62,544 nt of DNA, taken from Pseudomonadota bacterium (lineage in GTDB: Bacteria; Myxococcota_A; Polyangia; Polyangiales; DASUME01). Under the pieces are notes generated by a model that did not search any database, was not told where the DNA came from, and saw nothing but the letters and a program-made list of their open reading frames with translations. The DNA lies in assembly GCA_041179425.1 (NCBI GenBank), contig JBEGTL010000001.1, positions 1-62,544 of the forward strand, written 5' to 3'. The translations under genes were made by a program, and so were the position numbers. Every line of letters begins with the position of its first letter. Position 1 is the stretch's first letter. Below are positions 21,579 through 50,069 of the stretch, one piece after another.

Positions 21579-21911
21579 GCCCCTCGTGCACTGACTCGCG
21601 CGCGCTCTCGAGCGGCCTGCGCGATCGGCTTTGCGATCTCGCGAGCAGGGTGCAAGAAAAATTGCCTGGCTAAACTGTCAGTGAATGATGGTTCGTCTCC
21701 ACGTCCGTCTGACTAGCCGACGTCATACGAGGGCGAACGTTTTGACCCATCGAGTGCATGACGAGAGGTCGCTTGCTGCGCCTTGCCGTTCTGCCCTCGC
21801 CAATCGATCGCGTGGACTCACTTTTGGGGGGGGTAGTAGAGCCCGGCACCTGTCCCTGGGTGCGAGCGTTTGCCACAATGGCCTACCCCCCAGCCACGGA
21901 GTCTGCTTCCG

Positions 21912-29193: not shown

Positions 29194-30600
29194 TCAGCGC
29201 TCGCCTGACGACGAGAGTGCGGGCATGGAGCTCGGCAGGGTGCCTCTGCGGCCACACGCCCGACGCAGCGCCGAGAGAGCGACGCTCACGATGATACCGG
29301 GTCGCAGCAGCGTGTACGGCGATGCGACCAGCTGGAACACTGGACCGAGCGCTCGCTTGAGCTTGGGACTGTCGTGCGCCGCGCGCACCACGGCGACGCT
29401 CAGACCAAACAAGAACGCGTAGCCCGCCGGGCGAACCCCTTCGGTCTCCGGCCACTCGAGATCCATGCCGGTCGACATGTCCCAGGCGTTGCGGAGCTGA
29501 TGCCACTGCTGCTGATGAAACTTCCTGGTCAGCGCATAGGGGTCGAGCTTGGCGCCGCGAGCGCAGACCTCGCCGAGGATCGTGGCCGCGAGCGCAGCCA
29601 TGCTCATGCCTTGGCCATGGTAGGCGTTGAACGCGATGGCGCCGTCGCCGAGCGCGACGAAGCCGCCCACCTCCGCCGTCCAGCGCTCGAAGTGCCGGGC
29701 CCGGTTGTAGAGCGCCCGGTGGGTGTGGATGGACGAGACCGGCGTTGCATCCGCGATCACACGCGCGAGTACGGGCGAGCGAAGGCTACCGAGAAATGTC
29801 TGAAAGCCTTCTTCGTCGCCGGGCGGGTAGTCACGATTGAGCCCGCCGAGCGTGAGGACGTGGCGGCCGTCCTCGACCGGCATTAGCAATGCCCAGCGCT
29901 TTTGGTCGGGCGCTTTGGGGTCGATTAGCATTCCACGCCACCAGCGCGTGTCGTCTGGAGCTAACTCGTAGAAGCGGGATGCATAGCCCGCAAACGCATC
30001 GACGACCTCAGTGTCTGGCCGCGCCACGCCATGTGCCGCCAGCCAATCTAGACACTTACTATTACGACCGCTGGCGTCGATGACCAGATCGGCGAATAGC
30101 TCTGGCGACTCCACACGGTCGGTCGTGACGCCTGTCACCTTTACGCGCGTGCCCTCGTGGCTCGTCAGCAATCCAGTGACGCGCGTGTCCTCGAGCAATG
30201 AAAGATTGTTCAGATCGTGTCGCAGCCGCGCGCGTATGACACTCTCGAGTCCGATTCTCGACATGGTCAGCGGTTCGACTTGGATCGCCGCGCGTGGTGC
30301 CCAACCCCAGTCCGTATAGTGGGCGAACTCGCTTCCGAGATCCATGCGGTGCGCTCCTGCCGCGACGAGCTCTCGTTCGATGCCAGGAAACAGCGTCTCC
30401 AGCTCGAGCAGACCGCGGAGCAGCAACGCGTGCACATGCTGGCTCTGCGGTACGCCCGTGCGATGTGCGGGGCCGGTGGGAAGGAGATCGCGCTCGATCA
30501 GCGTGACTTGCTGAAAATGTCGGCTCAGCGCGCGTGCCGCGCACAAGCCAGCGATGCTGCCGCCGATCACGACCGCATGCGAGCGATGTTTCAGTTCCAT
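29194..30600 (-). CDS. FAD-dependent oxidoreductase/monooxygenase (paralogue A)
   Basis: ATG at 30600 (MELKHRSHAVVIGGSIAGLCAARAL is a GxGxxG motif). VIDASGRNS and ALGDGAIAFNAYHGQGMS are also present. It aligns by eye along its length with the gene at 37936..39420. Confidence 0.8.
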   Translation of the reverse strand: MELKHRSHAVVIGGSIAGLCAARALSRHFQQVTLIERDLLPTGPAHRTGVPQSQHVHALLLRGLLELETLFPGIERELVAAGAHRMDLGSEFAHYTDWGWAPRAAIQVEPLTMSRIGLESVIRARLRHDLNNLSLLEDTRVTGLLTSHEGTRVKVTGVTTDRVESPELFADLVIDASGRNSKCLDWLAAHGVARPDTEVVDAFAGYASRFYELAPDDTRWWRGMLIDPKAPDQKRWALLMPVEDGRHVLTLGGLNRDYPPGDEEGFQTFLGSLRSPVLARVIADATPVSSIHTHRALYNRARHFERWTAEVGGFVALGDGAIAFNAYHGQGMSMAALAATILGEVCARGAKLDPYALTRKFHQQQWHQLRNAWDMSTGMDLEWPETEGVRPAGYAFLFGLSVAVVRAAHDSPKLKRALGPVFQLVASPYTLLRPGIIVSVALSALRRACGRRGTLPSSMPALSSSGER

Positions 30601-30627
30601 TGGTGCGCCCACGGTGAAGAGTTTATC

Positions 30628-30655
30628 GATAGTCACTGCCTCCGCTGGATAGTCA
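30628..30655. repeat. direct repeat GATAGTCA-N12-GATAGTCA in a divergent promoter region
   Basis: Exact 8-mers at 30628-30635 and 30648-30655, 20 bp centre to centre. They lie 28-55 bp upstream of the FAD oxidoreductase ATG in a locally AT-richer spacer. Confidence 0.35.
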
Positions 30656-30931
30656 ATCTCCGTTCGCGTCAACTCCGAGCATTCGGATTCCGATGGACTG
30701 TTGCACGGGTGAATGGGCGTCAAACGAAGCAGCGTTCGCGCCTCGTCGACGCGCTCCGTCAACTGTCTCCACGCGCCACGGGTTTCGGCGATCGGTGAAC
30801 CAGATCATCCGATCGTGGAGACGACTTACTGTCCGCGTGAATTCCTGAACGCGTTTGGCTGACAAACTACCTGGGGAAGGCTGACCGAATTGACACGCTC
30901 AGACGAAACGTGAGAGCACAGCCACACCCCC

Positions 30932-31651
30932 GTGCACAACGAGACGAACATCGAGCCCACCGTCCATCAGGCAAGTCAGTCTTCCGCCATCAAAGCGCGA
31001 CGCAACGACTTCGACCTCGTGGCCCCCATCTACGATGCCCTCGCGAGCTTTGTGTTCGCCGGCGCCATTCGGAGAGCACAGCTCTCGCTGCTCCCGCGCC
31101 TATCAGATGCCAGAAGCGCGCTGATAATCGGCGGAGGCACTGGCTGGTTTCTGCTCGAACTCCTACAGAACCTGGGCGTTCAGCACGTGCTCTACGTCGA
31201 GAAGTCACCCAAAATGATCCGCTACTCACAAGACCTGATCAGAAAGCACGCTCCGGCGTTGTTCGGTCGTGTCGAGTTCAGGCTGGGCACCGAAGAGTCC
31301 CTCACGGCGAGTGACGGTCCGTTCGACCTGGTCGTCACCAACTTTTTCCTCGACCTCTTCTCGGACGAGAACAGCGCTGAGGTGGCCGAGGTACTTCACA
31401 AGTACTTGGCCGACACCGGGCGCTGGTTGTTCGTCGACTTCCAAGAGCCGCCTGGTGTGCTGGCCAACTCCGCCGCCCGCGCCCTGTTCAAGGTCATGTT
31501 CACGTTCTTCAACGTGGTGGCCCGCATGGAGTCCCGTCGTCCGCCCAACTACGAGCGGATCTTCGGTCGGCTCGGCATGAACGTGCTCGAAGAGCGCCAC
31601 TTCTATGCCTCGTTCATCTCTGCTCAGCTGCTGACGAAGACCCCGCGTTAG
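30932..31651 (+). CDS. class I SAM-dependent methyltransferase (paralogue 1)
   Basis: Motif I is ALIIGGGTGWFLLEL. PFDLVVTNFFLDLF and GRWLFVDF are also present. By eye it is roughly half identical to the gene at 33262..33942. GTG start is uncertain. Confidence 0.8.
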   Translation: MHNETNIEPTVHQASQSSAIKARRNDFDLVAPIYDALASFVFAGAIRRAQLSLLPRLSDARSALIIGGGTGWFLLELLQNLGVQHVLYVEKSPKMIRYSQDLIRKHAPALFGRVEFRLGTEESLTASDGPFDLVVTNFFLDLFSDENSAEVAEVLHKYLADTGRWLFVDFQEPPGVLANSAARALFKVMFTFFNVVARMESRRPPNYERIFGRLGMNVLEERHFYASFISAQLLTKTPR

Positions 31652-31743
31652 CTAGCTGACGTCTCTGCTCTGTCCCCCGTCTCTGTTTCCTAGGCAAGCT
31701 CCGATCCGCCCCCGCGGGTCGAGCCCCGACCCCTCGGATAGAC

Positions 31744-33228
31744 ATGTCGATCTCCACTGCGCTGCAGATGCTTCGAAGTCATGGGCGCGCTGCCGCCTCC
31801 TTTCAGATCCTCACGTCCGACCTGAACTACTGGTTCGCGGGTCAGGCCTGCGTGGCCTATGCGGACGTAGGGGGCGCCTGGGTCGCGCTGGGAGGCCCGG
31901 TCGGGCCCAAGGAGAGAGAAGCCGAGACCACGCGTCTGTTCGTCGAGGAGGCCCGCCGCCGGGGCAAACGAGTCCGCTTCTTTGCCTTCGAGAGCGAGGT
32001 CCCCGCGGGTGCGGGCCTGACGGCGCTGCACATCGGCGAACAGCCCGTGTGGAATCCGGCAGACTGGCCGCACTCCCTGCCCACCAAGATGCGTGGGCAG
32101 CTGCGTCGCGACCTCAAGAAGGCCGTCGTCAGCCTGCGACTCGCGACCCCTGCCGAGATCGAGGACCCCACCAGTCCGACCCGCCGTGGACTCGACGAGG
32201 TCATCTCGCAGTGGCTCGACTCGCGCAAGATGGCGCCCATGGACTTCATGGTGCAGCTGAACCCTTACTATCTCGCGCGGGAGCGCCGCTTCTTCGTGGC
32301 CGAGCTCGAGGGCAAGGTCGTCGCCGCCCTGATCGCGGTGCCTGTGTACGGTCGCAATGGCTGGTTCCTCGAGACGCTGCTGCGCGACCCACGCGCTCCC
32401 AATGGCACGGTCGAGCTTTTGTTCTCGCACGCCATGGAGACGTTTGCGGCCGGCGGCAGCAGCTACGTGACGTTTGGACTCTGTCCGCTGAGCGGCGCGA
32501 GTGACAGCCTCACCAAGCTCATCCGCCGAGGCGCGCGCTCGTTCTACAACTTCGACGGCCTTCGCAAGTTCAAGGGCAAGCTGGGACCTTCGGAGTGGGA
32601 GCCTGTGTACCTCGCCTTTCCCGAGGGCGACAATGCCGTGCTTGCCATGGTCGACTCGCTGCGCGCGTTCTTGGGCGGGGGCTTCGTTCGTTTTGGCCTG
32701 CGCACCATGGTGCAGCGCGCGAGCGCCGTCTCGGCCGTCATCGCGGCGCTGCTGTTGCCGTGGACCGTCCTGCTCGCATTCGCCGATACGGCGCACTGGT
32801 TCCCGTCGCGCGCAGTGCAGCTCGGCTGGGTCGCACTCGACTTGGTTTTGCTCGGCGGCTTCGTCTCCCTGGCGCGAAAGTTCCAAAAGCCGCTCGCCCT
32901 TGCACTCGCTGCCGGCGCCGGTCTCGACTTCGGGCTGAGCTGCTTGCAGTTCGGCTCGCACAACATGGAGCGCGCCCACGGCGTCGACTGGCTGTTCAGC
33001 GCCGTCGGCATCCTTGCGCCCCTGGTCTGCGCGCTGTTTCTCTGGTTCAGCCGAAACCGAAACCAGCTCTACACACCGACCGTCGCCACGCCGACCACAA
33101 CGGTCTCGGTCCGGAGACCGCTGCGCCCAAAGAGGGCAGAAGCGCGTCTCGAGCTCACCGACTCGTCCGTGCAGAAGCGCGTCCGCGCGGTCGCACCCGA
33201 AAGCTTGCCAGAACAGTCCGCTTCTTGA
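31744..33228 (+). CDS. DUF2156 (aminoacyl-phosphatidylglycerol synthase / MprF C-terminal-like) domain protein with C-terminal TM helices
   Basis: WLDSRKMAPMDFMVQLNPYY, GWFLETLLRDPRAPNGTVELL and FYNFDGLRKFKGKLGP resemble the LPG-synthase C domain. The last ~150 aa contain 4 hydrophobic helices. Confidence 0.75.
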   Translation: MSISTALQMLRSHGRAAASFQILTSDLNYWFAGQACVAYADVGGAWVALGGPVGPKEREAETTRLFVEEARRRGKRVRFFAFESEVPAGAGLTALHIGEQPVWNPADWPHSLPTKMRGQLRRDLKKAVVSLRLATPAEIEDPTSPTRRGLDEVISQWLDSRKMAPMDFMVQLNPYYLARERRFFVAELEGKVVAALIAVPVYGRNGWFLETLLRDPRAPNGTVELLFSHAMETFAAGGSSYVTFGLCPLSGASDSLTKLIRRGARSFYNFDGLRKFKGKLGPSEWEPVYLAFPEGDNAVLAMVDSLRAFLGGGFVRFGLRTMVQRASAVSAVIAALLLPWTVLLAFADTAHWFPSRAVQLGWVALDLVLLGGFVSLARKFQKPLALALAAGAGLDFGLSCLQFGSHNMERAHGVDWLFSAVGILAPLVCALFLWFSRNRNQLYTPTVATPTTTVSVRRPLRPKRAEARLELTDSSVQKRVRAVAPESLPEQSAS

Positions 33229-33261
33229 CCACCCCAGCGAAGACGGAGAAAGGCGCCTGCC

Positions 33262-33942
33262 ATGTCTGATAAATTCTCGAACAACAACTTCGACGCGGTC
33301 ACTCCCATCTACGACGCTCTCGCCGGGCTCGTGTTCGGCGGAAACATCCGACGCTCGCAGGTCGCGCTGCTCCCGAAGCTCAAGACCATCGACTCTGCCC
33401 TCGTGATCGGAGGCGGAACGGGCTGGTTTCTGCTGGAGCTCCTCGCGCAGACCGACGTGCGCAAGGTGCTCTACGTAGAGCTCTCGCGAGACATGCTCAA
33501 CAAGTCACGTCAGCTCGTCGAGCGGCGGGCGCCTCAGTGGCTGCACCGCGTGGAGTTCAAGCTGGGCAGCGAGCAGTCCATCACCCCCGAAGACGGTCCG
33601 TTCGATCTGATCGCGACCAACTTCTTCCTGGCTTGTTTTGGCGACGACAACTGCACGCAGATGATCCGGCGTCTGCACCCGCACATGAGCCCCAACGGCC
33701 GCTGGTTGTTTTCGGACTTCCAGGTGCCCGAGCGCGGCTGGGCGCGCCTCTGCGCGCTGGTCCTGTTCAAGGTCATGTTCACGTTCTTCAACGTGTTCAG
33801 CGGACTCGAAGCGCGCCGGCCGCCGAACTACGACCAGGGCTTTCACCAGGTGGGTCTCAAGCCGCAGACCGAGCGTCGTTTCTACGCGCGCATGATCCAC
33901 GTCAAGCTGCTCTCCAACGCGCCGCAGCTCAGCGCCGCCTGA
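33262..33942 (+). CDS. class I SAM-dependent methyltransferase (paralogue 2)
   Basis: Contains ALVIGGGTGWFLLEL, PFDLIATNFFLACF and GRWLFSDF. It shares a 34-nt identical stretch with paralogue 1. Confidence 0.8.
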   Translation: MSDKFSNNNFDAVTPIYDALAGLVFGGNIRRSQVALLPKLKTIDSALVIGGGTGWFLLELLAQTDVRKVLYVELSRDMLNKSRQLVERRAPQWLHRVEFKLGSEQSITPEDGPFDLIATNFFLACFGDDNCTQMIRRLHPHMSPNGRWLFSDFQVPERGWARLCALVLFKVMFTFFNVFSGLEARRPPNYDQGFHQVGLKPQTERRFYARMIHVKLLSNAPQLSAA

Positions 33943-34004
33943 GCTTGGCGGCGTGAGGTTCGATCGGCCTCTGTGACGAGCGCGCCGTGATGTACGACCC
34001 AAAC

Positions 34005-34036
34005 AAAGACGGCAGGAGCTTGCTCCGGCCGTCTTT
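34005..34036. terminator. hairpin between convergent genes (candidate bidirectional terminator)
   Basis: AAAGACGGCAGGAGC-TT-GCTCCGGCCGTCTTT forms an imperfect 15-bp stem and is followed by GACTTTT. It lies between the stops at 33942 (+) and 34042 (-). Confidence 0.5.
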
Positions 34037-34041
34037 GACTT

Positions 34042-34371
34042 TTAGTGGCGCGCTGCACCACTCAGGTTGAGTCCGACTAGACCGATCACCACCAGCACCA
34101 TGCTCAGGATCTTGAACATGCTGGTGGGCTCCCTGAAGTAGAAGATGCCGATCAGCGCGACGGCGGTGCTGCCGAGCCCCGCCCAGATCGCGTACGCGAC
34201 CGAGACCGGGATCTGGCGTAGCGCAAAGCTCAGACTGCTGAGGCTCGCCATGTACAAGATGAACGAGAGCGCCGAGGGGACGAACACCGTCATCCCCTTG
34301 GAGAACTTGAGTGCGATCGTGCCGGCGACCTCGAGCGCAATCGCGACGTAGAGGTAGATCCAAGACTGCAT
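34042..34371 (-). CDS. small multidrug resistance (SMR/EmrE-SugE family) transporter
   Basis: 109 aa, 4 TM helices, and a conserved TM1 Glu (VAIALEVAGTIALKFS). It aligns with EmrE by eye. Confidence 0.85.
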   Translation of the reverse strand: MQSWIYLYVAIALEVAGTIALKFSKGMTVFVPSALSFILYMASLSSLSFALRQIPVSVAYAIWAGLGSTAVALIGIFYFREPTSMFKILSMVLVVIGLVGLNLSGAARH

Positions 34372-34381
34372 GCCGAGGAAC

Positions 34382-36946: not shown

Positions 36947-37704
36947 TCGGATTCCCCTTCTAGTGTCCGTACGGGCGGCAGTTCATGCGCCGTGGTTGCC
37001 GCGCCTGGAGTCGGACGACTCGGCGCGCTCTCGCTTACGATCTTTCCGTCTTTGAAGTCCACCACACGATCGGCCCGTCGCGCCGCGACCACGTCGTGCG
37101 TGATGATGATCAGGGCACAGCCGCTGTTGCTCGCCGCGTCGAGCAACATCTTTTGGACGATGGCGCCAGACGCGGAGTCGAGGTTGCCGGTGGGCTCGTC
37201 GGCCAAGAGCAGCAGAGGCCGCTGGCTGAGCGCACGAGCCACCGCCACCCGCTGCATCTCGCCGCCGCTCAGCTGATCGGGCCGATGCCCCATGCGGGCG
37301 CCCAGGCCGACCAGGTCGAGCAGCTCTCCTGCGCGCTCATCGGCCTCGTCGAACGAGCTCCCTGCGAGCAACAACGGCAGCGCGACGTTCTCTCGTGCGC
37401 TCAGCAACGGCAGCAGGTTGAAGAATTGAAAGATCAAGCCGACACTTTTGCGGCGCAGGCGCGTCAGGTCGTCGTCTGACAGGCCGGACAGTGCGACGCC
37501 GCCGATGCGCACCTCCCCGGAGCTGGGCCGATCGAGCCCGCCGAGCAGGTTGAGCAAGGTAGACTTGCCCGAACCTGACGGTCCGACGATGGCGACCGTC
37601 TCCCCAGCCTCTACCTGGAGGGAGACGCCCTTGACGGCGCTCACCGCGGCATGTCCGGTGCGATAGGATTTGTGTACGTCGACGGCTTGCAAGATGGCCC
37701 GCAT
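36934..37704 (-). CDS. ABC transporter ATP-binding protein (MacB/LolD-like)
   Basis: Walker A GPSGSGKST, Q-loop, signature LSGGEMQRVAVARAL, Walker B LLLADEPT and an H-loop (IITHD). Confidence 0.9.
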   Translation of the reverse strand: MRAILQAVDVHKSYRTGHAAVSAVKGVSLQVEAGETVAIVGPSGSGKSTLLNLLGGLDRPSSGEVRIGGVALSGLSDDDLTRLRRKSVGLIFQFFNLLPLLSARENVALPLLLAGSSFDEADERAGELLDLVGLGARMGHRPDQLSGGEMQRVAVARALSQRPLLLLADEPTGNLDSASGAIVQKMLLDAASNSGCALIIITHDVVAARRADRVVDFKDGKIVSESAPSRPTPGAATTAHELPPVRTLEGESECAI

Positions 37705-37935
37705 TGGACACCAGACTAGTCAATGCGTGAGCGCGGTCTACAGAATAAGAGGAAGGAGAGCGAGTCTACAGTCCGCTTTCTCGGCAACTCTCTGCTGGCG
37801 CCGGGTCGTGTAGTGCCGGACACCGAGCGGGACCCTGCACAAACGGCCCAAATTGCAGCGCGCGGACAAAACGTAAACTCGTTCGTCGCCCCGGCTGTGT
37901 TAGCTTCCCCGTCTTCGCCCCCCCTCGGAGAAAGC

Positions 37936-39420: not shown

Positions 39421-39473
39421 CGCGCGCGCGACGTCTCTTCGCTTCGACGGCAGTCCGCTTGCCAGAGAGCCGC

Positions 39474-43952: not shown

Positions 43953-44289
43953 ATGGTGTTTCCCTCAGGAGGTCAGAAGCCTCGATCGCTAACACGGGAG
44001 GCCACGGTAGAGCACTGCAATGAGACTCCGGTGCGGCTTGGTCCCGACAATCGAGCGCTGCGATCGATGCAAAAGTGAACTGTTGCTGCTGCACGCCGAC
44101 GCCTCGCCCAAACCCCGCCATTGTGCGATCTGACTGACGCGTTCGCGATTGCGCCAGAGGCGCCGACGAGCATTGAGCCGGGTGCGCTGCGCGTGTAGGG
44201 TCGGGGCTCGGTAGACACGGAAACGAGTGTGGACCTGACCACGGTGGAGACCGACTCTCCGCCGGACTTGTCGCGACGAGAGGATCGGG

Positions 44290-46605
44290 ATGTTGGAGAC
44301 GTTGACGGCTGAGCTGGTATGGGGCCTGGTCCCACGGTTCGTCGGAGTGATCTACCTGCTCGCGTTCGGAGCGTTGATCCCGCAGCACGAGATCATGCCG
44401 GGGGCACGCCGCCTGGCCCCGCTCGGGCTCTTGCGCGCGCGCATTCGCCGCGACTTCCCCGGGCTACGGCGCTACTTCGAGTTCCCCACCGTGCTGTGGA
44501 TCGACGACAGCGAGTTCACACAAAAGGCGCTGCTCTGGGCGGGCGCCCTGTGTGGTGCATGCGCCGTGTACGGCGGGCCCTACGCCTTCTACGCGCTGCT
44601 AGTCGGGTGGATCATCTGGCTCTCCGTCGAGCCGCGCGGACTCATCTTCCCGTGGGACACCATGCTGCAGGAAGTGGGCTTTTTGGTGCTGTTTCTGCCC
44701 GCGGGCGAGACACTGCCCAGCCTGCTGGCGACGGCGCTGCCGCTGCCCTCGGTGGCCTTCGTGTTCCGCTGGTTCGTGCTGCGTTTGGTGCTGGGTTTCG
44801 GCAAGGACAAGTTTGTCGGCACCACCAAACAAGACCTGCTGTACCTGCGCGGCTTCTTTGTGTGGATGCCGCTGCCCACGCCGCTGGGTTGGTACGCTCA
44901 TCACGCGCCCGCTTGGTTCTTGCGGGCCAGCCTCGGCTTCATGTTCTTCGCCGAGATCATCGCGCCCGTGCTTGGGCTGTTTTCGGGCCCGCTGCGGGTC
45001 GTCTCGTTCGTCACGCTGGTCGGGCTGATGGCCGGCATTCATGCAACTGGCAACTGGGGGTTCTTTAACCTCGGCTTCGTCATGCTCAGCGTGTGTCTGC
45101 TCGACACCAAGTCTTCCATCTTCGACCTGCAGCTCGAGCCGTGGGCCAGCCGGCTCACCACCTTCCCGGACGTGGCGATCCATTCGACGATGGCCGGCTT
45201 GTTCTTGGTGAGCCTGCTCTACGTGTTCAACAACTCGTGGTTCATGCGCACCTGGCTGCACTGGCCGGCCGACATGTTCCCGCTCCCACACAAGTGGGTC
45301 CCGTGGGTCGCGCGCTTCAACGCGGCGCTCGAGCCGCTGCGCTGGCTCGCTCCGTTCCGCGTGGTCAACGGCTACGGCGTGTTTCCCCCGCACTCCATGC
45401 CCCCGATGCGCCTCCTGCCCGTGCTCGAGGGCAGCGACGATGGCGTCACCTGGAAGCAGTACGGGTACAGACACATCCCCAGCTTCGCGCACTCGCGGCC
45501 GCCGTTCATCGCGCCCTACCACGCGCGGCTCGATCAGATCACGTACTACATGACCATGGGCATCGACAGTGGCAGCCTGTTCGGCTCGCTGTTTCCGCTC
45601 GCCAATCCGTACACCATCAACGCGCGCGTGATCATGTTCGACCTGCTCGCGCAGCGTGTGCTCTCGGGCGACCCGCACCTGCTTCGCCAGCTCGGCCACA
45701 ACCCCTTTCCCGAGGCGCCGCCGACGCTCGTCCGGGTCGGCATGATCGGGATGACGCCCACGCGGCCGAGCGAGCTGCGCGCGACCGGGGAGTGGTGGCA
45801 CGTGCGGCGCCTGGGCACGCTGGTGCCGGCGCGCGGCGTGACGACCTGGCTCAACGAGCTGCTGATTCCGGAGCCCGAGCTGTTCCATCCCGATCTCGTG
45901 CGCTGGCGTGATCGCGCCGCGCCGCTGCGCGCAATCGTGGCCGCGCACGCAGCGGGTCAGCACCCCGACCAGGCCGTGTTGGCCGGCAGCGACCTCACTC
46001 TGGCCGACGTCGAGTGCCTGTGGAACGAGCTCGTGCCCATGCTGGCCGAGGCACGCGGCGACTGGACGCGCATGCACGAGCGCGAAGACGCGGTCACGGC
46101 GCGTTTTGGTCCCGTCGCGCTGTATCGTCTCGAGCGCGTGTTCGAGCGCTACGTGTGGTTGTTGCGCAAGCAGACCGGGCGCCATCGTTTTGGCCTCACA
46201 GAGCCGTCGCTGCCGGTGCAGAGCAACTTCCGCTACCACATGCTCATGCACGAGATCGTGCTCGACGGGCGCGCTGCCTACCACGCCGTGATGGCCGACC
46301 CCGCGCGCGTGGTCGAGCGTGTCGAGCGCTCCACCGATGCGACGCAGCTGTGGGCGCTCACGCTGTTCCGCTACGACCAGGTGATGCTGCACGTCAGCAC
46401 ATTCCGCTGCTCGCAGATGGGTCTGCAGAGCAAGATGCACGGGCTGCCGAGCTTCTTCGAGTACTACGACCTGCTCGTGGAGCAGGTGCCGCGCGGCGAA
46501 GAGTTCTGCCCCAAGTTCGTGCTGCACGAAGACGGCGAGCACACCATCGAGGGCTTCTACCCGCCGCCTCCGCTGCTCACGAGCACCCGCGCGCAAGAGG
46601 GCTGA
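44290..46605 (+). CDS. lipase maturation factor (LMF1/DUF1222) family membrane protein with C-terminal extension (paralogue 2)
   Basis: Collinear with 41655..43952 over the full length, for example LIFPWDTMLQEVGFLVLFLP, NGYGVFPPHSMPPMRLLPVLEGSDDGVTWKQYGY and the tail EEFCPKFVLHEDGEHTIEGFYP. Confidence 0.8.
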   Translation: MLETLTAELVWGLVPRFVGVIYLLAFGALIPQHEIMPGARRLAPLGLLRARIRRDFPGLRRYFEFPTVLWIDDSEFTQKALLWAGALCGACAVYGGPYAFYALLVGWIIWLSVEPRGLIFPWDTMLQEVGFLVLFLPAGETLPSLLATALPLPSVAFVFRWFVLRLVLGFGKDKFVGTTKQDLLYLRGFFVWMPLPTPLGWYAHHAPAWFLRASLGFMFFAEIIAPVLGLFSGPLRVVSFVTLVGLMAGIHATGNWGFFNLGFVMLSVCLLDTKSSIFDLQLEPWASRLTTFPDVAIHSTMAGLFLVSLLYVFNNSWFMRTWLHWPADMFPLPHKWVPWVARFNAALEPLRWLAPFRVVNGYGVFPPHSMPPMRLLPVLEGSDDGVTWKQYGYRHIPSFAHSRPPFIAPYHARLDQITYYMTMGIDSGSLFGSLFPLANPYTINARVIMFDLLAQRVLSGDPHLLRQLGHNPFPEAPPTLVRVGMIGMTPTRPSELRATGEWWHVRRLGTLVPARGVTTWLNELLIPEPELFHPDLVRWRDRAAPLRAIVAAHAAGQHPDQAVLAGSDLTLADVECLWNELVPMLAEARGDWTRMHEREDAVTARFGPVALYRLERVFERYVWLLRKQTGRHRFGLTEPSLPVQSNFRYHMLMHEIVLDGRAAYHAVMADPARVVERVERSTDATQLWALTLFRYDQVMLHVSTFRCSQMGLQSKMHGLPSFFEYYDLLVEQVPRGEEFCPKFVLHEDGEHTIEGFYPPPPLLTSTRAQEG

Positions 46606-46760
46606 AGTCTGGGACGACCTAGCCCACCATGAAACAGTGACGGATGGAGTCGGAGCCGTGGTGCGAGGCGCCGCCGGTTCTGAGGAGCCCCCGGAGCGGA
46701 CTTCCTGTCCGTGAGGAGGCACCGCAGGAAGCGGTGGCGGATCGCGCCGCGGATCCGGCT

Positions 46761-47723
46761 CTAGCCGTTACTGTTTCGAGCCAGCATGTGGCGGTAGGCG
46801 TTGATCTGGTGGACTACGCGGCCACCGTTGCTCAGCGCCGAAGCGGGTAGGGCGCGCTCGAGCAGCGTGGTGTGCTGAATGAACGTGGACCCGTACTGAA
46901 TCATCGCGCTCGGCTCGGCGAGAAAGCGCGTGAACACGGGTGCCGCGCGCCTGACCTGCGTGCGGAACGTGCTCTGTGGCTTCATACGCCGACGAATCGC
47001 GGCCTTGACCTGCTCGGAGATGTCGCTGTCGTTCTCCCAGCGTAGACCGTGCCCAGCGTCGGCCTTGCAGCGCTCGAGCTCTTGTTTGCGCTCGTCGGTG
47101 ACGAAGTCGACCCAGGAGAAGTGTCCGCCCGGCTTGAGCACGCGGCCCACCTCTTTGAAGAACGCGCCGAGGTTGGGGTAGTTGTGCGAGCTCTCCACGT
47201 TGAGGACGACGTCGAACTCAGCGTCGCCGAACGGTAGGTTCTCCGCGTCGCCGTGGACGTAGTGCAGCACCTCGGGGCGCGAGAAACGCGCGTTGGCGCG
47301 AGCGACCGCGAGGCGCGCGAGATCGACGCCCACGAACGTGCTCTGACGCTCGTTGCGCGAGAGGAAGTTGAGCCCGGCGCCGGCGCCGCTGCCGACCTCG
47401 AGGATCTTGCGCGGCGTGCCTTCGACCGAGGGCACCTGGTGCAGCGTGAAGTAGTACAGCTGCTCGGAGTAGCCGTCCGAGCCATGGCGATCGTACTCGC
47501 CGAGTTTCTGCTCGATCTGGTGGTGTGCTCGCTCGTCGAACAGGCCCCAGTTCCAGAACGGAAGCGCAAAGTCGTCGGCCCAGTCGTCGTACGAGGCGCT
47601 GACCTGCTTTTTGATCGACTCTTGTTCGCTGTTGGTCAGGCTCTGACTCTGACCGCTGATCATGAGTCGTGCGAGAGCGTTCCCGTAGTCGCTCCAGGTC
47701 TTGTGCTCTCTGCGCAGGTTCAT
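46761..47723 (-). CDS. class I SAM-dependent (O-)methyltransferase, similar to the mycobacterial phthiotriol/phenolphthiotriol dimycocerosate methyltransferase family
   Basis: ATG at 47723 is preceded by AAGGAG. Contains ILEVGSGAGAGLNFL, GDAENLPFGDAEFDVVLNVESSHNYP and VLKPGGHF. The rest of the 859-aa ORF-track entry is non-coding overlap. Confidence 0.85.
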   Translation of the reverse strand: MNLRREHKTWSDYGNALARLMISGQSQSLTNSEQESIKKQVSASYDDWADDFALPFWNWGLFDERAHHQIEQKLGEYDRHGSDGYSEQLYYFTLHQVPSVEGTPRKILEVGSGAGAGLNFLSRNERQSTFVGVDLARLAVARANARFSRPEVLHYVHGDAENLPFGDAEFDVVLNVESSHNYPNLGAFFKEVGRVLKPGGHFSWVDFVTDERKQELERCKADAGHGLRWENDSDISEQVKAAIRRRMKPQSTFRTQVRRAAPVFTRFLAEPSAMIQYGSTFIQHTTLLERALPASALSNGGRVVHQINAYRHMLARNSNG

Positions 47724-47773
47724 TCCAAATCTCCTTTGCTGTATCGGTTGGGCATGGTCGGGTCCGGAGCTAC

Positions 47774-49231
47774 TCACCGCGCGACGAGCCGAAGGCCCAC
47801 GCTGCCTGAGACGCAGCCGAGAGGTCTGTACACATGCGACGCTTCGTACTCTTTTTGCAGAAAGAACGAGCAGCGCGTGAGGAGGGTGTGAAAAAACACC
47901 TTGGCTTGTAGCGTCGCGAGCTGCATGCCGATGCACACGTGCGCGCCGCCCCCAAACGGACTGAAGATGGCGGGGTGCCGCTTGTGCTCCGCGCGCTCGG
48001 GCGAAAAACGCTCGGGGTCGAAGGTCAGCGGCTGGGTCCACCAATCTGGATGGCGACCCAGGCAGCCCGCCATGGCGCCGACCAGCGTGCCGGCGAGCAG
48101 CTTGTGGCCCCCGATCTCGACGTCGCACAGCGCGCGGCGCGGAAGGAAGTCGGTGATGGGCATGAGTCGTAGCGACTCTTTCCACACCCACTCGAGCTGA
48201 TCGAGCTTCGAGAGCCCCTTGGCGTCGAGCGCGCGCGCTCCCACTTGGTCGGCCTTTTCGCGCAGGCGCCGCTGCCACGGGATGTGTTTGGCGAGCAGGT
48301 AGGCCATGCTGGTGATGCCGAGCGACGTGGAGTCGTGCGCCCCGAGCATCATCGTCAGAAACACGCGCACCAGCGCATGGTCGGTCAGCTCGCCGGCGAC
48401 TCCGGTCAGTTGACAAAGCTGACTGAACAGGTCGTTGCCTGGGGAGGCGCGGCGGGCAGGCGCGAGCGCGACGAAGTAGTCCGTGAGGTAGCCGTACGCG
48501 CGCTTGGCGCGGGAGAGCCAGGGGTTGAGGGCCTGCCTGCGCACGAGCGCCTGGGCGCCCGACGAGGTGTGCCGCAAGGCGTCGTCGATGCGGGCCAGGT
48601 CTTCTGGATCTTCGATGCCCGTCAGCAAGCGGTTGGAGATCGCAGGAAACAACGCCTGCATGGCGGGCTTGAGGTGCACGCCGCCATCGGTGATCCAGCC
48701 TGCGATGGCACGGTCGACCTGCGGACGAGCGATCTCCAGGTAGCCGCGGATGGCGCTCGCGGAGAAGGCAGGCTGCATCAGCCGACGCACCACGCTGTGA
48801 TCTGCGAAGTCGAGTGTCAGCAGGGAGCCGGGGTTGCCACCCTCTGCGTTGAGCCCGTCGAAGAACAGGTACTCCCACGCCATCGCGGTGGACCAGACGC
48901 TCTGCTCGTTGCGCAGGATCTTCTGGACCTCGTCGGCCGCGCACACAGCCACCATGGGCTGGGTCATGTACATCGAGCGATAGAGCTCGCCGTGGCGCTG
49001 CTGCATACGCTCGGCATGGGCGACGCCTGAACGGAAGGCGCCGTACATGGACTTGAGAGACGCGCTCACACCGACTTGGCCGGGAAGGCTCGTGGGGGGC
49101 AAGACGGGCCCAGGCACGCCCACGGGCGCTTCTGCACGTCCGATGCTGGCGAGAATGGCGCGGGCCGCTTGCGGTGCTGAACTCGAAGCGGCATTTGATC
49201 GGGATGCGTCTAGTGACGCGGTTTCGGACAT
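47774..49231 (-). CDS. cytochrome P450
   Basis: Cys-ligand loop FSPFGGGAHVCIGMQLA, ExxR (ESLR) and I-helix MLGAHDSTS. The ATG at 49231 is preceded by AGGAG. Confidence 0.9.
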   Translation of the reverse strand: MSETASLDASRSNAASSSAPQAARAILASIGRAEAPVGVPGPVLPPTSLPGQVGVSASLKSMYGAFRSGVAHAERMQQRHGELYRSMYMTQPMVAVCAADEVQKILRNEQSVWSTAMAWEYLFFDGLNAEGGNPGSLLTLDFADHSVVRRLMQPAFSASAIRGYLEIARPQVDRAIAGWITDGGVHLKPAMQALFPAISNRLLTGIEDPEDLARIDDALRHTSSGAQALVRRQALNPWLSRAKRAYGYLTDYFVALAPARRASPGNDLFSQLCQLTGVAGELTDHALVRVFLTMMLGAHDSTSLGITSMAYLLAKHIPWQRRLREKADQVGARALDAKGLSKLDQLEWVWKESLRLMPITDFLPRRALCDVEIGGHKLLAGTLVGAMAGCLGRHPDWWTQPLTFDPERFSPERAEHKRHPAIFSPFGGGAHVCIGMQLATLQAKVFFHTLLTRCSFFLQKEYEASHVYRPLGCVSGSVGLRLVAR

Positions 49232-49428
49232 CGTCGCTCCTCGGGTGCCTGCGCGCTCGCGCACCCGCAGCGCGACTGTTGCCTGCAAGTTGGCCTGCCG
49301 AAAAGTCTCTTCTGTCGTATGCGGCGAGATTCGCACGCACCCGAGCGCAAATGGTGGCCCTGAGCTCAGACTACCGACGACGCGGTCCGAAAACTGCGTT
49401 GCCACTATCACTGCGCCCTGCCGTCGAA

Positions 49429-49541
49429 GCGCGCGGTCTTCCGCGCGCGAGCGAAGAGCCGACGGCGCGCGGTCTTCCGCGCGCGAGCGAAGTGCCGACG
49501 GCGCGCGGTCTTCCGCGCGCGAGCGAAGAGCCGACGGCGCG
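49429..49541. repeat. 36-bp tandem repeat, 3 full copies plus a partial one, each containing an 8-bp-stem hairpin
   Basis: GCGCGCGGTCTTCCGCGCGCGAGCGAAG(A/T)GCCGACG at 49429, 49465 and 49501. The stem is GCGCGCGG/CCGCGCGC with loop TCTT. It lies in the spacer between the SRPBCC stop and the P450 start. Confidence 0.85.
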
Positions 49542-50069
49542 CTACGACCGATGCGGTAGACCACTCGCGGCCACGCCGTGCGTTCGAATCCAACGGTTGA
49601 GGAAATCGGCCGCGCGATTGTGTGCGTCTCGCTGGGTCCGCTCGAGAAACTTCTCGATGAGTCCGCCCACGCCGTAGACCTTGACGGTATTCTCGACTAC
49701 GGTCACGCGCTCACAGCGTGTTCCGTCACCCAGCGGACGCGTGCTGATCTCGAACGTCGTGCCGAACTTGTCGGCATTCTGTTTGGGCACGCAGCGCGCG
49801 CTGTACTGCTTCCGCACGCTGTCGTAGTCCCCAAACTCGCTGTACGAGCCATCGCCCACGAACTTCTTGGCGAAGCTCGGCAGCTCGACCTGGGCGGTGT
49901 AGTCGATGCGCCAGCGGGTGCCGACGTCGCTGACCTGCTCTTCGACGACCTCGTAGCTGCCGGGACTGCCGAGGTCCTGCCACATGGCCAGTGCCACATT
50001 CTGGTCCAAAAACAGCTTCCAGAAGCTGTCGACGTCCGTTTCGATGGTGTGACGTACCGTGTAGCCCAA
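49542..50069 (-). CDS. SRPBCC-superfamily (DUF2505 / polyketide-cyclase-like) protein
   Basis: 175 aa. The MGYTVRHTIETDVDSFWKLFLD... pattern is typical of DUF2505. Coding composition is clean. Confidence 0.7.
   Translation of the reverse strand: MGYTVRHTIETDVDSFWKLFLDQNVALAMWQDLGSPGSYEVVEEQVSDVGTRWRIDYTAQVELPSFAKKFVGDGSYSEFGDYDSVRKQYSARCVPKQNADKFGTTFEISTRPLGDGTRCERVTVVENTVKVYGVGGLIEKFLERTQRDAHNRAADFLNRWIRTHGVAASGLPHRS

What the first reader, a model, noticed from the sequence alone, without database searches (positions are those of the whole stretch)
29194..50069. A 21-kb accessory island of tailoring and export genes built from three paralogue pairs, with no recognisable scaffold synthase
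Seen, contiguous genes in order:
- FAD oxidoreductase A (-)
- methyltransferase 1, DUF2156 aminoacyl-lipid-synthase-like gene, methyltransferase 2 (+)
- SMR pump and MacB-type ABC permease + ATPase (-)
- FAD oxidoreductase B and molybdopterin oxidoreductase (+)
- LMF1-family protein 1 (-), LMF1-family protein 2 (+)
- Rv2952-like O-methyltransferase, P450 and SRPBCC/DUF2505 protein (-)

Three families occur twice as clearly diverged copies: FAD oxidoreductases, methyltransferases and LMF1. There is no PKS, NRPS, terpene synthase or fatty-acid synthase gene in the island. Most products are membrane-bound or act on hydrophobic substrates.

Inference: this is a duplicated module that oxidises and methylates an existing membrane lipid or other hydrophobic envelope compound and exports or flips it. 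It would not be a classical biosynthetic gene cluster. I cannot match this gene set to a described pathway.
Basis: partly seen in the sequence, partly recalled or inferred. Interest (0 to 1): 0.65.

Follow-up and report, generated by a model that had tools for sequence, protein, structure and literature searches.

The report
Three lipid-tailoring gene modules side by side

Summary
All 14 genes, their order and strands, and the three paralogue pairs are real (FAD 38 %, methyltransferases 53 %, LMF1 55 % identity). No PKS, NRPS, terpene or fatty-acid synthase lies anywhere in the 62.5-kb window.

The reading as one co-functional island is only partly supported. Comparison with about 135 related loci splits it into modules.

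- **Module A (30932-37704):** MT1, a DUF2156 aminoacyl-lipid-synthase-like enzyme with a C-terminal membrane anchor, and MT2, facing an ABC ATPase, a MacB-type permease and an SMR protein. All six genes recur in the same order at 53-65 % identity in another lineage, with none of the other island genes nearby.
- **Module B:** two MonCI/Lsd18-like flavin epoxidases (FADA, FADB), a molybdopterin oxidoreductase and two LMF1-family proteins. FADB-molybdoenzyme pairs recur. A second MAG carries orthologues of both FADs and both LMF1s within 18 kb in a different order. The LMF1 model's only fold relatives are vitamin K gamma-carboxylase.
- **Module C (P450, O-methyltransferase, DUF2505):** synteny could not be tested.

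Most likely A makes and exports an N-methylated aminoacyl lipid, and B oxidises a membrane lipid or quinone. Both functions are inferred. There is no sign of mobility.

The parts
29194..30603 (-). FADA: MonCI/Lsd18-like class-A flavin monooxygenase. The ORF extends to 30762; the likely start is at 30603. Belongs to module B.
   Evidence: Pfam DAO/FAD_oxidored. PDB MonCI E 3e-57 and Lsd18 E 3e-55. 38 % identical to FADB. A 60 % orthologue lies in L129 beside LMF1 genes.
30932..31651 (+). MT1: class-I SAM methyltransferase. Module A.
   Evidence: Pfam Methyltransf_25/12/11. 53 % identical to MT2. A position-specific orthologue in L130 is 59 % identical to MT1 and 53 % to MT2.
31744..33228 (+). 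DUF2156 (LPG_synthase_C) aminoacyl-lipid-synthase-like enzyme with about four C-terminal transmembrane helices and no MprF flippase domain. Module A.
   Evidence: Pfam 129.6 bits. PDB LpiA/MprF C-domain E 2e-25. Hydropathy peaks at residues 328-435. 285 representative clusters at E<=1e-30, many of the same length. 53 % orthologue in L130.
33262..33942 (+). MT2: class-I SAM methyltransferase, paralogue of MT1. Module A.
   Evidence: The L130 orthologue is 65 % identical to MT2 and 55 % to MT1.
34042..34371 (-). SMR-family four-helix transporter, last gene of the ATPase-permease-SMR operon. Module A.
   Evidence: NCBIfam EbrB/SugE/Qac models at E 1e-20, below their cut-offs. Four hydrophobic segments. 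It starts 10 bp after the permease stop. 55 % orthologue in L130 carries Pfam Multi_Drug_Res.
34382..36946 (-). Fused double MacB_PCD/FtsX permease of MacB/LolCE type. Module A.
   Evidence: Pfam FtsX x2 and MacB_PCD x2. lolCE model 123.5 bits, below 362. 60 % orthologue over the full length in L130.
36934..37704 (-). ABC ATPase of LolD/MacB type, overlapping the permease start by 13 bp. Module A.
   Evidence: Pfam ABC_tran. LolD model 244.9 bits, below 307.75. 58 % orthologue in L130.
37936..39420 (+). FADB: MonCI/Lsd18-like flavin monooxygenase. The ORF runs from 37723; the likely start is ATG 37936 behind a GGAGA motif. Module B.
   Evidence: PDB Lsd18 E 4e-57 and MonCI E 2e-54. Homologues are 450-490 aa. 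Start site. Paired with the molybdoenzyme in L001, L013-L015, L083 and L085.
39459..41654 (+). Cytoplasmic Mo/W-bis-PGD oxidoreductase with an N-terminal [4Fe-4S] domain. It begins 38 bp after FADB. Module B.
   Evidence: Pfam Molybdop_Fe4S4, Molybdopterin and Molydop_binding. Best PDB relative is FdhF at E 1e-37. The Mo-ligand Cys is kept but the FDH His is replaced by Asn. All NCBIfam equivalogs fall below their cut-offs.
41655..43952 (-). LMF1a: 765-aa LMF1-family polytopic membrane protein with an extra helical C-terminal domain. Module B.
   Evidence: Pfam LMF1 and LMF1_C. AF2 model pLDDT 86.7. The only PDB fold relatives are VKGC/GGCX. Found next to FADB and the molybdoenzyme in L001, L083 and L085.
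44290..46605 (+). LMF1b: paralogue of LMF1a, divergently transcribed across a 337-bp spacer. Module B.
   Evidence: 55 % identical to LMF1a. A 64 % orthologue in L129 sits beside a second LMF1 and both FAD orthologues. An LMF1 pair is also present at the P0198 locus.
46761..47723 (-). SAM methyltransferase closest to the Rv2952/Mtf2 lipid O-methyltransferase models. Module C.
   Evidence: Pfam Methyltransf_11. NF045823 120.8 bits, below 300, and NF045825 118.8 bits, below 400. Adjacent to LMF1b also in the 90 % relative L128.
47774..49231 (-). Cytochrome P450. Likely start is ATG 49231. The methyltransferase starts 50 bp after its stop. Module C.
   Evidence: Pfam p450, E 3e-51. PDB 7wzl E 1e-33, then CYP51 and CYP3A4. 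Start site.
49429..49542 (.). 36-bp x 3.2 tandem repeat between DUF2505 and the P450. Each unit holds a G+C-rich hairpin.
   Evidence: TRF score 221 with 97 % matches. Three exact copies against 0 expected. Sequence.
49542..50069 (-). DUF2505 (SRPBCC-type) small protein. Module C, with uncertain linkage.
   Evidence: Pfam DUF2505 47.6 bits against a cut-off of 26.9.

Best explanation
The region is a juxtaposition of separately conserved envelope-lipid tailoring modules, not one pathway.

Module A (30932-37704)
- It consists of two convergent operons: MT1-DUF2156-MT2, and ABC ATPase-MacB-type permease-SMR.
- Inferred mechanism: the membrane-anchored DUF2156 enzyme transfers an amino acid from aminoacyl-tRNA to a hydroxyl of a membrane lipid. 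Known substrates of this domain are phosphatidylglycerol, diacylglycerol or glycolipid, and sterol.
- The two conserved, non-interchangeable methyltransferases then methylate the product, most simply its free amine, giving a methylated cationic head group.
- The SMR protein and the LolCDE-like ABC machine take the place of the flippase domain that MprF has and this enzyme lacks. They would move the lipid to the outer leaflet or out of the inner membrane.

Module B (FADA at 29194-30603, then 37936-46605)
- It consists of two MonCI/Lsd18-like flavin monooxygenases, a Cys-ligated molybdopterin oxidoreductase that is not a formate dehydrogenase, and two LMF1-family membrane proteins with a vitamin-K-carboxylase-like fold.
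- Inferred mechanism: a membrane-bound oxidation (epoxidation or hydroxylation) and reduction system acting on an alkene-bearing lipid, isoprenoid or quinone.
- In this genome module A sits between FADA and FADB.

Module C (46761-50069)
- A P450-methyltransferase pair plus DUF2505, which would hydroxylate and methylate a hydrophobic compound.

What is shown and what is inferred
- Shown: family assignments, paralogy, module-wise synteny, absence of a core synthase.
- Inferred: every substrate and every reaction.
- My sub-confidences are: composite architecture 0.7; module A as an aminoacyl-lipid plus methylation plus export system 0.35; module B as a lipid or quinone oxidation system 0.25.
For: Module A
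- In L130/L131, all six genes recur in the same order and orientation. Identities are MT1 59 %, DUF2156 53 %, MT2 65 %, SMR 55 %, permease 60 % and ATPase 58 %.
- There the module is flanked by mevalonate-pathway genes on one side and cytochrome-c/imelysin genes on the other. No FAD, molybdoenzyme, LMF1 or P450 homologue is present.
- A 45 % DUF2156 homologue is again followed by a methyltransferase.
- The DUF2156 domain matches MprF/LpiA/AlaPGS catalytic domains at E 2e-25 to 1e-18, and the sterol-aminoacylating ErdS domain more weakly.
- ErdS and ErgS show that the domain can use sterols (PMC7334510, PMC8913301). MprF can use glycolipids (PMC11630815).
- There is no PF03706 flippase domain. 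C-terminal transmembrane helices are present.
- Gaps of 33-92 bp, -13 bp and 10 bp fit two operons.

Module B
- Both FADs match MonCI and Lsd18 at E about 1e-57. Their epoxidase function is documented in PMC10560226 and PMC12144862.
- FADB-molybdoenzyme adjacency is seen in L001 (68 % / 65 %), L013-L015 (47-51 % / 55-56 %, divergent orientation) and the close relatives L083 and L085.
- L001 adds LMF1a (55 %), a methyltransferase and a MacB-type permease.
- L129 holds a FADA orthologue (60 %), an LMF1b orthologue (64 %), a FADB orthologue (58 %) and a second LMF1 (53 %) within 18 kb, in a different order.
- LMF1 pairs also occur at the P0198 locus.
- The LMF1a model (pLDDT 86.7) has only GGCX/VKGC as fold relatives: the top 14 hits, probability 0.87-1.0.
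- Many charged residues inside the membrane domain are invariant across 29 sequences.
Against: - Module A conservation rests on one independent lineage with all six genes, plus one partial case.
- DUF2156-TM homologues at 42-46 % identity stand alone, without methyltransferase or pump genes.
- The methyltransferases carry no signature that says N-, O- or C-methylation. The best named matches are weak.
- FAD-LMF1 linkage is a minority pattern. About 11 of 13 independent longer LMF1 loci and most of the 80 FAD loci lack the partner within 10 kb.
- An 81 % LMF1a relative (L084) has different neighbours.
- Fold similarity to VKGC is weak in numbers: E 1.8e-3 at best and TM 0.21-0.32. No sequence-level link is detectable.
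- Modules A and B are interleaved here and also in the 89 % relative L083. Some coupling in this lineage cannot be excluded.
- Module C synteny is untested.
- There are no expression data.
Confidence: 0.55

Rival explanations
1. One reading: all 14 genes form one co-functional, duplicated module that oxidises, methylates and exports a single pre-existing envelope lipid.
For: - All products are membrane-bound or of families that act on hydrophobic substrates.
- Modules A and B are interleaved: FADA, then module A, then FADB. The ATPase-FADB junction is kept in the 89 % relative L083.
- Methyltransferases and MacB-type permeases also turn up beside FAD/LMF1 genes in L001 and L129, though they are of different families or only 31 % identical.
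Against: - Module A occurs without B and C in L130/L131.
- B occurs without A and C in L001 and L129.
- No locus outside the window's own close relatives combines them, among about 135 loci.
- The region has seven strand switches and at least six transcription units.
Confidence: 0.15
2. A tailoring and export sub-cluster of a natural-product pathway, for example a polyene or polyether-like polyketide or a terpenoid, whose scaffold genes lie elsewhere in the genome.
For: - The only characterised relatives of both FADs are the polyether epoxidases MonCI and Lsd18.
- P450, methyltransferases, an SRPBCC-type protein, an SMR protein and an ABC exporter are common tailoring and resistance genes.
- Many FAD homologues lie in actinomycete loci next to LuxR/SARP-type regulators and MFS pumps.
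Against: - No PKS, NRPS, terpene synthase or epoxide hydrolase/cyclase of the MonB/Lsd19 type lies in 62.5 kb.
- None was seen in the annotated neighbourhoods of L001, L129 or L130.
- DUF2156 and LMF1 are not known natural-product tailoring enzymes.
- The modules are conserved without any core gene beside them.
Confidence: 0.15
3. A chance neighbourhood: unrelated genes that happen to lie together, with no functional link even within the sub-groups.
For: Most homologues of FAD and LMF1 have unrelated, variable neighbours. The region has many strand switches.
Against: - Six-gene order and orientation are kept at about 55-65 % protein identity while both flanks differ.
- Both FAD and both LMF1 orthologues occur together within 18 kb in L129.
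- FADB-molybdoenzyme adjacency is seen in at least four independent lineages.
- With about 4 FAD copies per 10-Mb genome (four loci in one 9.5-Mb MAG), a 20-kb neighbourhood would hold one by chance in under 1 % of cases.
Confidence: 0.05

Closest known systems
MprF / aminoacyl-phosphatidylglycerol synthases, and other DUF2156 aminoacyl-tRNA transferases such as LpiA, AlaPGS and the fungal ErdS/ErgS
   Same: The catalytic LPG_synthase_C/DUF2156 domain is present and well above Pfam threshold. It is 28-33 % identical to MprF C-domains. A lipid-translocation function is encoded with it.
   Different: - There is no N-terminal PF03706 flippase domain. Instead there is a short C-terminal four-helix anchor.
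- Translocation would be provided by separate SMR and MacB-type ABC genes.
- The enzyme is bracketed by two conserved methyltransferases, which no described aminoacyl-lipid system has. My literature searches found none.
- It scores far below the MprF equivalog cut-off: 104.9 against 600 bits.
MonCI / Lsd18 polyether epoxidases (class-A flavin monooxygenases)
   Same: These are the best and only strong solved-structure relatives of both FADA and FADB, at E about 1e-57 over about 380 residues. Size is similar.
   Different: There is no polyketide synthase and no MonB/Lsd19-type epoxide hydrolase nearby. Here they are paired with a molybdoenzyme and LMF1-family membrane proteins. Identity is only about 35 %. 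The family is spread over Myxococcota, actinomycetes, cyanobacteria and Chloroflexota in many contexts.
Eukaryotic lipase maturation factor 1 (LMF1), and the related vitamin K-dependent gamma-carboxylase (VKGC/GGCX)
   Same: Pfam LMF1 and LMF1_C domains are above threshold in both proteins. The AF2 model's only PDB fold relatives are GGCX structures.
   Different: - These are bacterial and carry an extra helical C-terminal domain of about 230 residues.
- They occur as a conserved a/b pair.
- They are linked to flavin monooxygenases, not to lipases.
- There is no detectable sequence similarity to VKGC.
- Equivalence of catalytic residues was not verified.
Giant-virus 'vitamin K redox modules' (VKOR plus gamma-carboxylase-like epoxidase plus desaturase), preprint 10.64898/2026.03.26.714578
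   Same: A VKGC-fold membrane protein is genetically linked to lipid-oxidising enzymes and a reductase, and is proposed to remodel membrane lipids.
   Different: The partner enzymes differ: flavin epoxidases and a molybdoenzyme here, a di-iron desaturase and VKOR there. There is no VKOR here. The membrane protein here is of the LMF1 branch, not the VKGC branch.
LolCDE / MacB-type (type VII) ABC transporters, and SMR transporters (EmrE, SugE/Gdx; ArnE/ArnF as a lipid-flipping precedent, from my own knowledge)
   Same: Fused double MacB_PCD/FtsX permease with a LolD/MacB-like ATPase. Four-helix SMR protein.
   Different: All equivalog scores are below cut-off. No adaptor (MFP) or TolC gene is adjacent, unlike MacAB-TolC. 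The SMR gene is the third gene of the ABC operon, which is an unusual combination conserved in L130.

Membership tests
Aminoacyl-lipid synthase (DUF2156 / LPG_synthase_C superfamily) | Catalytic DUF2156 (PF09924) domain above the curated threshold | tested here: met
   129.6 bits against a cut-off of 27.5, covering profile positions 6-298 of 298. PDB LpiA E 1.8e-25.
Bifunctional MprF | N-terminal flippase domain (PF03706) fused to the synthase, and the NCBIfam equivalog score | tested here: not met
   No PF03706 hit. NF033480 scores 104.9 bits against a cut-off of 600, and only model positions 530-836 match.
Aminoacyl-lipid synthase | Aminoacyl-tRNA-dependent transfer of an amino acid to a lipid hydroxyl | not testable with these tools
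   Needs an enzyme assay or lipidomics.
Polyether epoxidase (MonCI/Lsd18) | Sequence membership in the MonCI/Lsd18 clade of class-A flavin monooxygenases | tested here: inconclusive
   The strongest PDB relatives score E 3e-57 and 4e-57, but identity is only about 35 % and no tree with other class-A enzymes was built.
Polyether epoxidase (MonCI/Lsd18) | Location in a type-I PKS cluster with a MonB/Lsd19-type epoxide hydrolase | tested here: not met
   No PKS or NTF2-like hydrolase domain in any of the about 40 window proteins.
LMF1 family | Pfam LMF1 (PF06762) and LMF1_C (PF25179) above threshold | tested here: met
   LMF1a scores 96.9 and 85.6 bits. LMF1b scores 93.1 and 60.1 bits. Cut-offs are 27 and 34.2.
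Vitamin K-dependent gamma-carboxylase (VKGC/HTTM) | Shared fold of the membrane epoxidase domain | tested here: inconclusive
   The top 14 Foldseek PDB hits are all GGCX, with probability 0.87-1.0. However, E is 1.8e-3 to 0.12 and TM is 0.21-0.32.
Vitamin K-dependent gamma-carboxylase (VKGC/HTTM) | Catalytic K218 / D263 / N290 equivalents | not tested
   The family-invariant K172/K174, E222 and N255/N260 have a similar spacing.
Formate dehydrogenase (FdhF type) | Sec/Cys-His catalytic pair, and the equivalog score | tested here: not met
   The query reads 'QDCNNK' where FdhF has 'RLCHAP' or 'RVUHGP': the Cys is kept and the His is replaced by Asn. TIGR01591 scores 226.9 bits against a cut-off of 666.
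Mo/W-bis-PGD (DMSO reductase) superfamily | Fe4S4, molybdopterin and dinucleotide-binding domains | tested here: met
   PF04879, PF00384 and PF01568 are all above their cut-offs. The Cys pattern of the cluster is seen in the alignments.
LolCDE / MacB type-VII ABC transporter | MacB_PCD plus FtsX permease with a cognate ATPase; equivalog scores; an adaptor gene for MacAB-TolC | tested here: inconclusive
   The domains are present. The lolCE score of 123.5 is below 362.45, the LolD score of 244.9 is below 307.75, and the MacB score of 95.3 is below 966. No HlyD-type adaptor gene is present in the island.
Rv2952 / Mtf2 lipid O-methyltransferases | NCBIfam equivalog score | tested here: not met
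   120.8 bits against 300, and 118.8 bits against 400. The relation holds at family level only.
Classical biosynthetic gene cluster | A core scaffold enzyme (PKS, NRPS, terpene synthase, RiPP precursor or maturase) | tested here: not met
   None was found by Pfam in the whole window. antiSMASH itself was not available.
Genomic (accessory, mobile) island | Integrase or transposase, tRNA target, flanking repeats, or strong compositional shift | tested here: not met
   No tRNA. No mobility domain in any scan. G+C is 65.2 % against 67-68 % in the flanks. Flanking direct repeats were not searched for.

The most novel reading that the evidence does not exclude
The paired bacterial LMF1-family proteins are not chaperones. 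They would be membrane enzymes of the vitamin-K-carboxylase type, that is, quinol or lipid epoxidase-like. Together with two MonCI-like flavin epoxidases and a cytoplasmic molybdopterin oxidoreductase acting as the reducing arm, they would form a previously undescribed bacterial redox cycle that oxidises membrane lipids or the menaquinone pool. This would be analogous to the VKGC-VKOR cycle and to the 'vitamin K redox modules' recently proposed for giant viruses. It would give the first function to the LMF1 family outside eukaryotes.
Probability: 0.12. Interest if true: 0.8.

Novelty: new variant of a known kind. Interest (0 to 1): 0.5.

Why it matters
Three points would matter if the inferred functions hold.

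- **A new lipid class.** Aminoacylated lipids such as Lys-PG, Ala-PG and steryl-amino acids tune surface charge and resistance to cationic peptides. If module A works as inferred, it would add a methylated aminoacyl lipid. It would also show that the flippase half of MprF can be replaced by an SMR protein plus a Lol/MacB-like ABC machine.
- **A handle on bacterial LMF1.** Bacterial LMF1-family proteins are numerous in Myxococcota. More than 280 proteins (90 %-identity cluster representatives) were found, and I found no study of them in the searchable literature. Their repeated linkage to MonCI-like epoxidases gives the first testable lead on their function. It may also bear on what eukaryotic LMF1 does chemically.
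- **A lesson for genome mining.** A visually coherent 'island' of lipid-related genes can be a mosaic of independent modules. Paralogue pairs were the useful signal here, because each pair is conserved as a pair.

Tried and rejected
- **Chimeric query.** A concatenated query (DUF2156 + O-methyltransferase + DUF2505) was used for the last word-indexed protein search. It returned only 25 MprF proteins at about 30 % identity and nothing for the other two parts. The exhaustive HMMER search later found 285 clusters at E<=1e-30 for DUF2156 alone. The chimeric result was therefore a prefilter artefact and I disregard it. It cost the chance to fetch neighbourhoods for module C.
- **Exact look-up.** The look-up of the window's own LMF1a found nothing. 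The source genome is not in that collection.
- **Laying contigs.** Logan contigs of four freshwater metagenomes were laid on 24-44 kb. The contigs are too fragmented to show presence or absence of the island. They only show that a related strain (run X2) has the same local junctions.
- **RNA evidence.** No RNA runs hold this sequence.
- **Sequence link from LMF1 to VKGC.** Profile searches of PDB sequences with the full-length alignment and with the N-terminal alignment gave no hit, even at E<=10. Pfam at E<=10 gave only LMF1.
- **The name 'symbB'.** This name on one LMF1 homologue is a gene-name prefix used in dinoflagellate (Symbiodiniaceae) genome papers, not a function.
- **Neighbours of FAD homologues in other phyla.** These are LuxR/SARP-like regulators, MFS pumps, RelA/SpoT and others. 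They gave no common partner.
- **Formate dehydrogenase.** Rejected for the molybdoenzyme.

Full report

The window has high G+C (65-71 %), so I called genes by third-position G+C and checked them by domain scans.

- FADA: 29194-30762 (-).
- MT1: 30932-31651 (+).
- A DUF2156/LPG_synthase_C protein: 31744-33228 (+).
- MT2: 33262-33942 (+).
- An SMR protein: 34042-34371 (-).
- A fused double MacB_PCD/FtsX permease: 34382-36946 (-).
- Its ABC ATPase: 36934-37704 (-).
- FADB: ORF 37723-39420 (+).
- A molybdopterin oxidoreductase with an Fe4S4 domain: 39459-41654 (+).
- Two LMF1 + LMF1_C proteins: 41655-43952 (-) and 44290-46605 (+).
- A methyltransferase nearest to the Rv2952/Mtf2 models: 46761-47723 (-).
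- A P450: 47774-49231 (-).
- A DUF2505 protein: 49542-50069 (-).

None of the NCBIfam equivalog models reaches its curated cut-off, so all names are at family level only.

The three paralogue pairs are genuine. FADA/FADB share 38 % identity (E 3e-94). MT1/MT2 share 53 %. LMF1a/LMF1b share 55 % over 758 residues.

Domain scans of the other window genes found no PKS, NRPS, terpene synthase or fatty-acid synthase anywhere in the 62.5 kb.

I saw nothing that marks a mobile or recently acquired island. There is no tRNA, no Rfam hit and no integrase or transposase domain. The G+C dip is small, 65.2 % against 68.1 % and 67.3 %.

The sequence comes from a freshwater metagenome. Its closest protein relatives are from Polyangiales/Myxococcales MAGs.

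**2. Closer look at the proteins**

*The FAD enzymes.* Both have the polyether epoxidases MonCI and Lsd18 as their only strong solved-structure relatives, at E about 1e-57. Those enzymes epoxidise unactivated alkenes of a polyene chain (PMC10560226, PMC12144862).

*The DUF2156 protein.* It aligns with the catalytic C-domains of MprF, LpiA and AlaPGS (E 2e-25 to 1e-18) and, more weakly, with the fungal sterol-aspartylating ErdS. It lacks the MprF flippase domain. Instead it ends in about four hydrophobic helices. An exhaustive HMMER search shows this architecture of about 450-490 residues is a family of its own, with 285 representative clusters at E<=1e-30.

*The molybdoenzyme.* It has no signal peptide region ahead of its Fe4S4 domain. 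It keeps the cluster cysteines and the Mo-ligand cysteine. It has Asn where formate dehydrogenases have the catalytic His, so it is not an FDH. Its substrate is open.

*LMF1a.* It was modelled with AlphaFold2 from a 29-sequence alignment (mean pLDDT 86.7).
- The only PDB fold relatives are cryo-EM structures of human vitamin K gamma-carboxylase. They fill the top 14 places with probability 0.87-1.0, but with weak E-values (1.8e-3 at best) and TM-scores of 0.21-0.32.
- No sequence-level link could be detected.
- The membrane domain holds many invariant charged or polar residues, among them K172, K174, E222, N255, N260 and D272. To me this argues for an enzyme rather than a passive chaperone.
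- The spacing K174-E222-N255/260 resembles the K218-D263-N290 centre of VKGC and the K-E pair of viral epoxidase-like homologues described in a 2026 preprint. I could not superpose the structures, so this is a lead and not a result.

**3. Synteny: the decisive test**

I fetched 80 genome loci around FAD homologues and 44 metagenome loci around LMF1 homologues. I also fetched individual contigs for selected homologues. I then searched all of them with the island's proteins and clustered all neighbouring ORFs. Three results stand out.

*(a) Module A is conserved as a unit.*
- In L130/L131, found through a 53 % DUF2156 homologue, the order is MT, DUF2156, MT, then SMR, MacB-type permease and ABC ATPase on the opposite strand. 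This is exactly as in the window.
- Identities are 59, 53, 65, 55, 60 and 58 %.
- The upstream methyltransferase is closer to MT1 and the downstream one to MT2, so the duplication is old and both copies are kept in place.
- Both flanks differ from the window: mevalonate-pathway genes on one side and a cytochrome-c/imelysin set on the other. No FAD, molybdoenzyme, LMF1 or P450 homologue is present.
- A 45 % homologue is again followed by a methyltransferase.
- Homologues at 42-46 % stand alone. The six-gene module therefore belongs to one sub-clade of the DUF2156-TM family.

*(b) Module B is conserved in pieces.*
- FADB and the molybdoenzyme are adjacent in L001 (68 % and 65 % identity, same orientation), in three further Polyangiales MAGs (L013-L015, divergent orientation) and in the close relatives L083 and L085.
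- L001 continues with a methyltransferase, an LMF1a-type gene (55 %) and a MacB-type permease (31 %).
- L129 comes from an NCBI MAG. Within 18 kb it carries a FADA orthologue (60 % to FADA, 40 % to FADB), an LMF1b orthologue (64 %), a FADB orthologue (58 %) and a second LMF1 (53 %). The order differs and the intervening genes are unrelated. A PEMT/DUF1295-type membrane methyltransferase lies next to the FADA orthologue.
- Another contig has two convergent LMF1 genes.
- FADA therefore belongs with FADB and the LMF1 pair. In the window, module A lies between FADA and FADB.

*(c) The links are not universal.*
- About 11 of 13 independent longer LMF1 loci and most FAD loci have none of the partners within 10 kb.
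- Even an 81 % LMF1a relative (L084) has other neighbours.
- The FAD family reaches actinomycetes, cyanobacteria, Chloroflexota and beta-proteobacteria, where its neighbours are mostly regulators and pumps with no common theme.
- With about four FAD copies in a 9.5-Mb MAG, a chance hit within 20 kb would be expected in under 1 % of loci. The recurrences in (b) are well above chance but define a facultative association.

*Module C* could only be seen in a 90 % relative, L128, where LMF1a, LMF1b and the methyltransferase keep the window's order. Its conservation at greater distance is untested. A 310-bp spacer with three tandem 36-bp hairpin units separates DUF2505 from the P450.

**4. How it most likely works**

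*Module A.*
- Shown: a DUF2156 catalytic domain on a membrane anchor, two conserved methyltransferases in one operon with it, and a tightly packed ATPase-permease-SMR operon facing it.
- Inferred step 1: an amino acid is transferred from aminoacyl-tRNA to a lipid hydroxyl. Known acceptors for this domain are PG, DAG or glycolipids, and sterols (PMC11630815, PMC7334510, PMC8913301).
- Inferred step 2: methylation follows, most simply of the free amine.
- Inferred step 3: the SMR protein and the Lol/MacB-like machine stand in for the missing MprF flippase.
- From my own knowledge, SMR proteins typically handle quaternary ammonium or guanidinium cations, and the SMR-like ArnE/ArnF pair flips a cationic lipid-linked sugar. 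This fits a methylated cationic head group, but it is circumstantial.
- I put this mechanism at about 0.35.

*Module B.*
- Shown: two epoxidase-like flavoenzymes, a non-FDH molybdoenzyme and two VKGC-fold membrane proteins that recur together.
- Inferred: oxygenation of an alkene-bearing lipid, isoprenoid or quinone at the membrane, with the molybdoenzyme as an oxygen-atom-transfer or electron-transfer partner.
- I put a lipid or quinone oxidation role at about 0.25. I put the specific 'vitamin-K-cycle-like' version at about 0.12.

*Module C.* Hydroxylation and methylation of a hydrophobic compound. I have no further evidence.

**5. Comparison with what is known**

- Module A works like an MprF-type aminoacyl-lipid system. 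It fails the MprF membership test because it has no flippase domain and falls far below the equivalog score. It adds methyltransferases and pumps that no described system has. My literature searches found nothing comparable.
- The FADs resemble MonCI and Lsd18 but lack the defining polyketide context.
- The LMF1 proteins are members of the Pfam LMF1 family. I found no study of bacterial members.
- The nearest conceptual parallel is the proposed giant-virus vitamin K redox module.

**6. Verdict**

Its central claim of one duplicated island acting on one substrate is not supported.

What remains are two uncharacterised, conserved modules, each with a testable hypothesis. I rate the finding as a new variant of known kinds of system, with interest 0.5.

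Noticed in passing
window 21870-25901 (+): A 1343-residue protein combines an indoleamine-2,3-dioxygenase-like domain, FAD_binding_1/NAD_binding_1 reductase domains and a cytochrome b5 domain. It looks like a self-sufficient haem dioxygenase-reductase fusion.
   Followed up: no
window 49429-49542: A 36-bp unit is repeated 3.2 times between DUF2505 and the P450, and each unit holds a G+C-rich hairpin (GCGCGCGG-loop-CCGCGCGC). Three exact copies are found where chance would give none. It could be a terminator/attenuator array or a REP-like element.
   Followed up: partly
window 33928 and 39439 (intergenic MT2/SMR and FADB/molybdoenzyme): A related strain in metagenome run X2 carries 28-bp and 23-bp G+C-rich insertions at these intergenic points. 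The 23-bp one shares the stem sequence of the 36-bp repeat unit. This suggests a small palindromic element that varies between strains.
   Followed up: no
window 41654/41655: The stop codons of the convergent molybdoenzyme and LMF1a genes abut with a 0-bp gap, so there is no room for separate terminators.
   Followed up: no
window 50684-56029 (+): A 1781-residue protein directly right of the island carries subtilase S8, peptidase M23 and peptidoglycan-binding domains. It looks like a large secreted cell-wall-lytic protease, as expected in a predatory myxobacterium.
   Followed up: no
window 4587-5888 (-) and 15660-16322 (+): The left part of the window holds further lipid-related genes: a membrane fatty-acid desaturase and a START-domain lipid-binding protein. 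They are not contiguous with the island.
   Followed up: no
L001 8039-9880 (-); L096/L105/L107 about 2000-3800 and about 8100-9980: A polytopic membrane protein of about 610 residues without a Pfam match recurs next to FAD/LMF1/MacB-type genes in these loci, at 33-35 % identity. It has no homologue in the window.
   Followed up: partly
L130 572-6920: In the other lineage, module A lies directly downstream of a complete mevalonate-pathway set: type-2 IDI-like FMN dehydrogenase, polyprenyl synthase, three GHMP kinases/decarboxylase and HMG-CoA reductase. This may hint at an isoprenoid or sterol acceptor, or it may be coincidence.
   Followed up: no
L012 and L076 (genome loci): Some genomes carry two MonCI-like FAD genes in tandem. 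One 9.5-Mb Myxococcales MAG has four dispersed copies. Duplication is a recurrent trait of this family.
   Followed up: no
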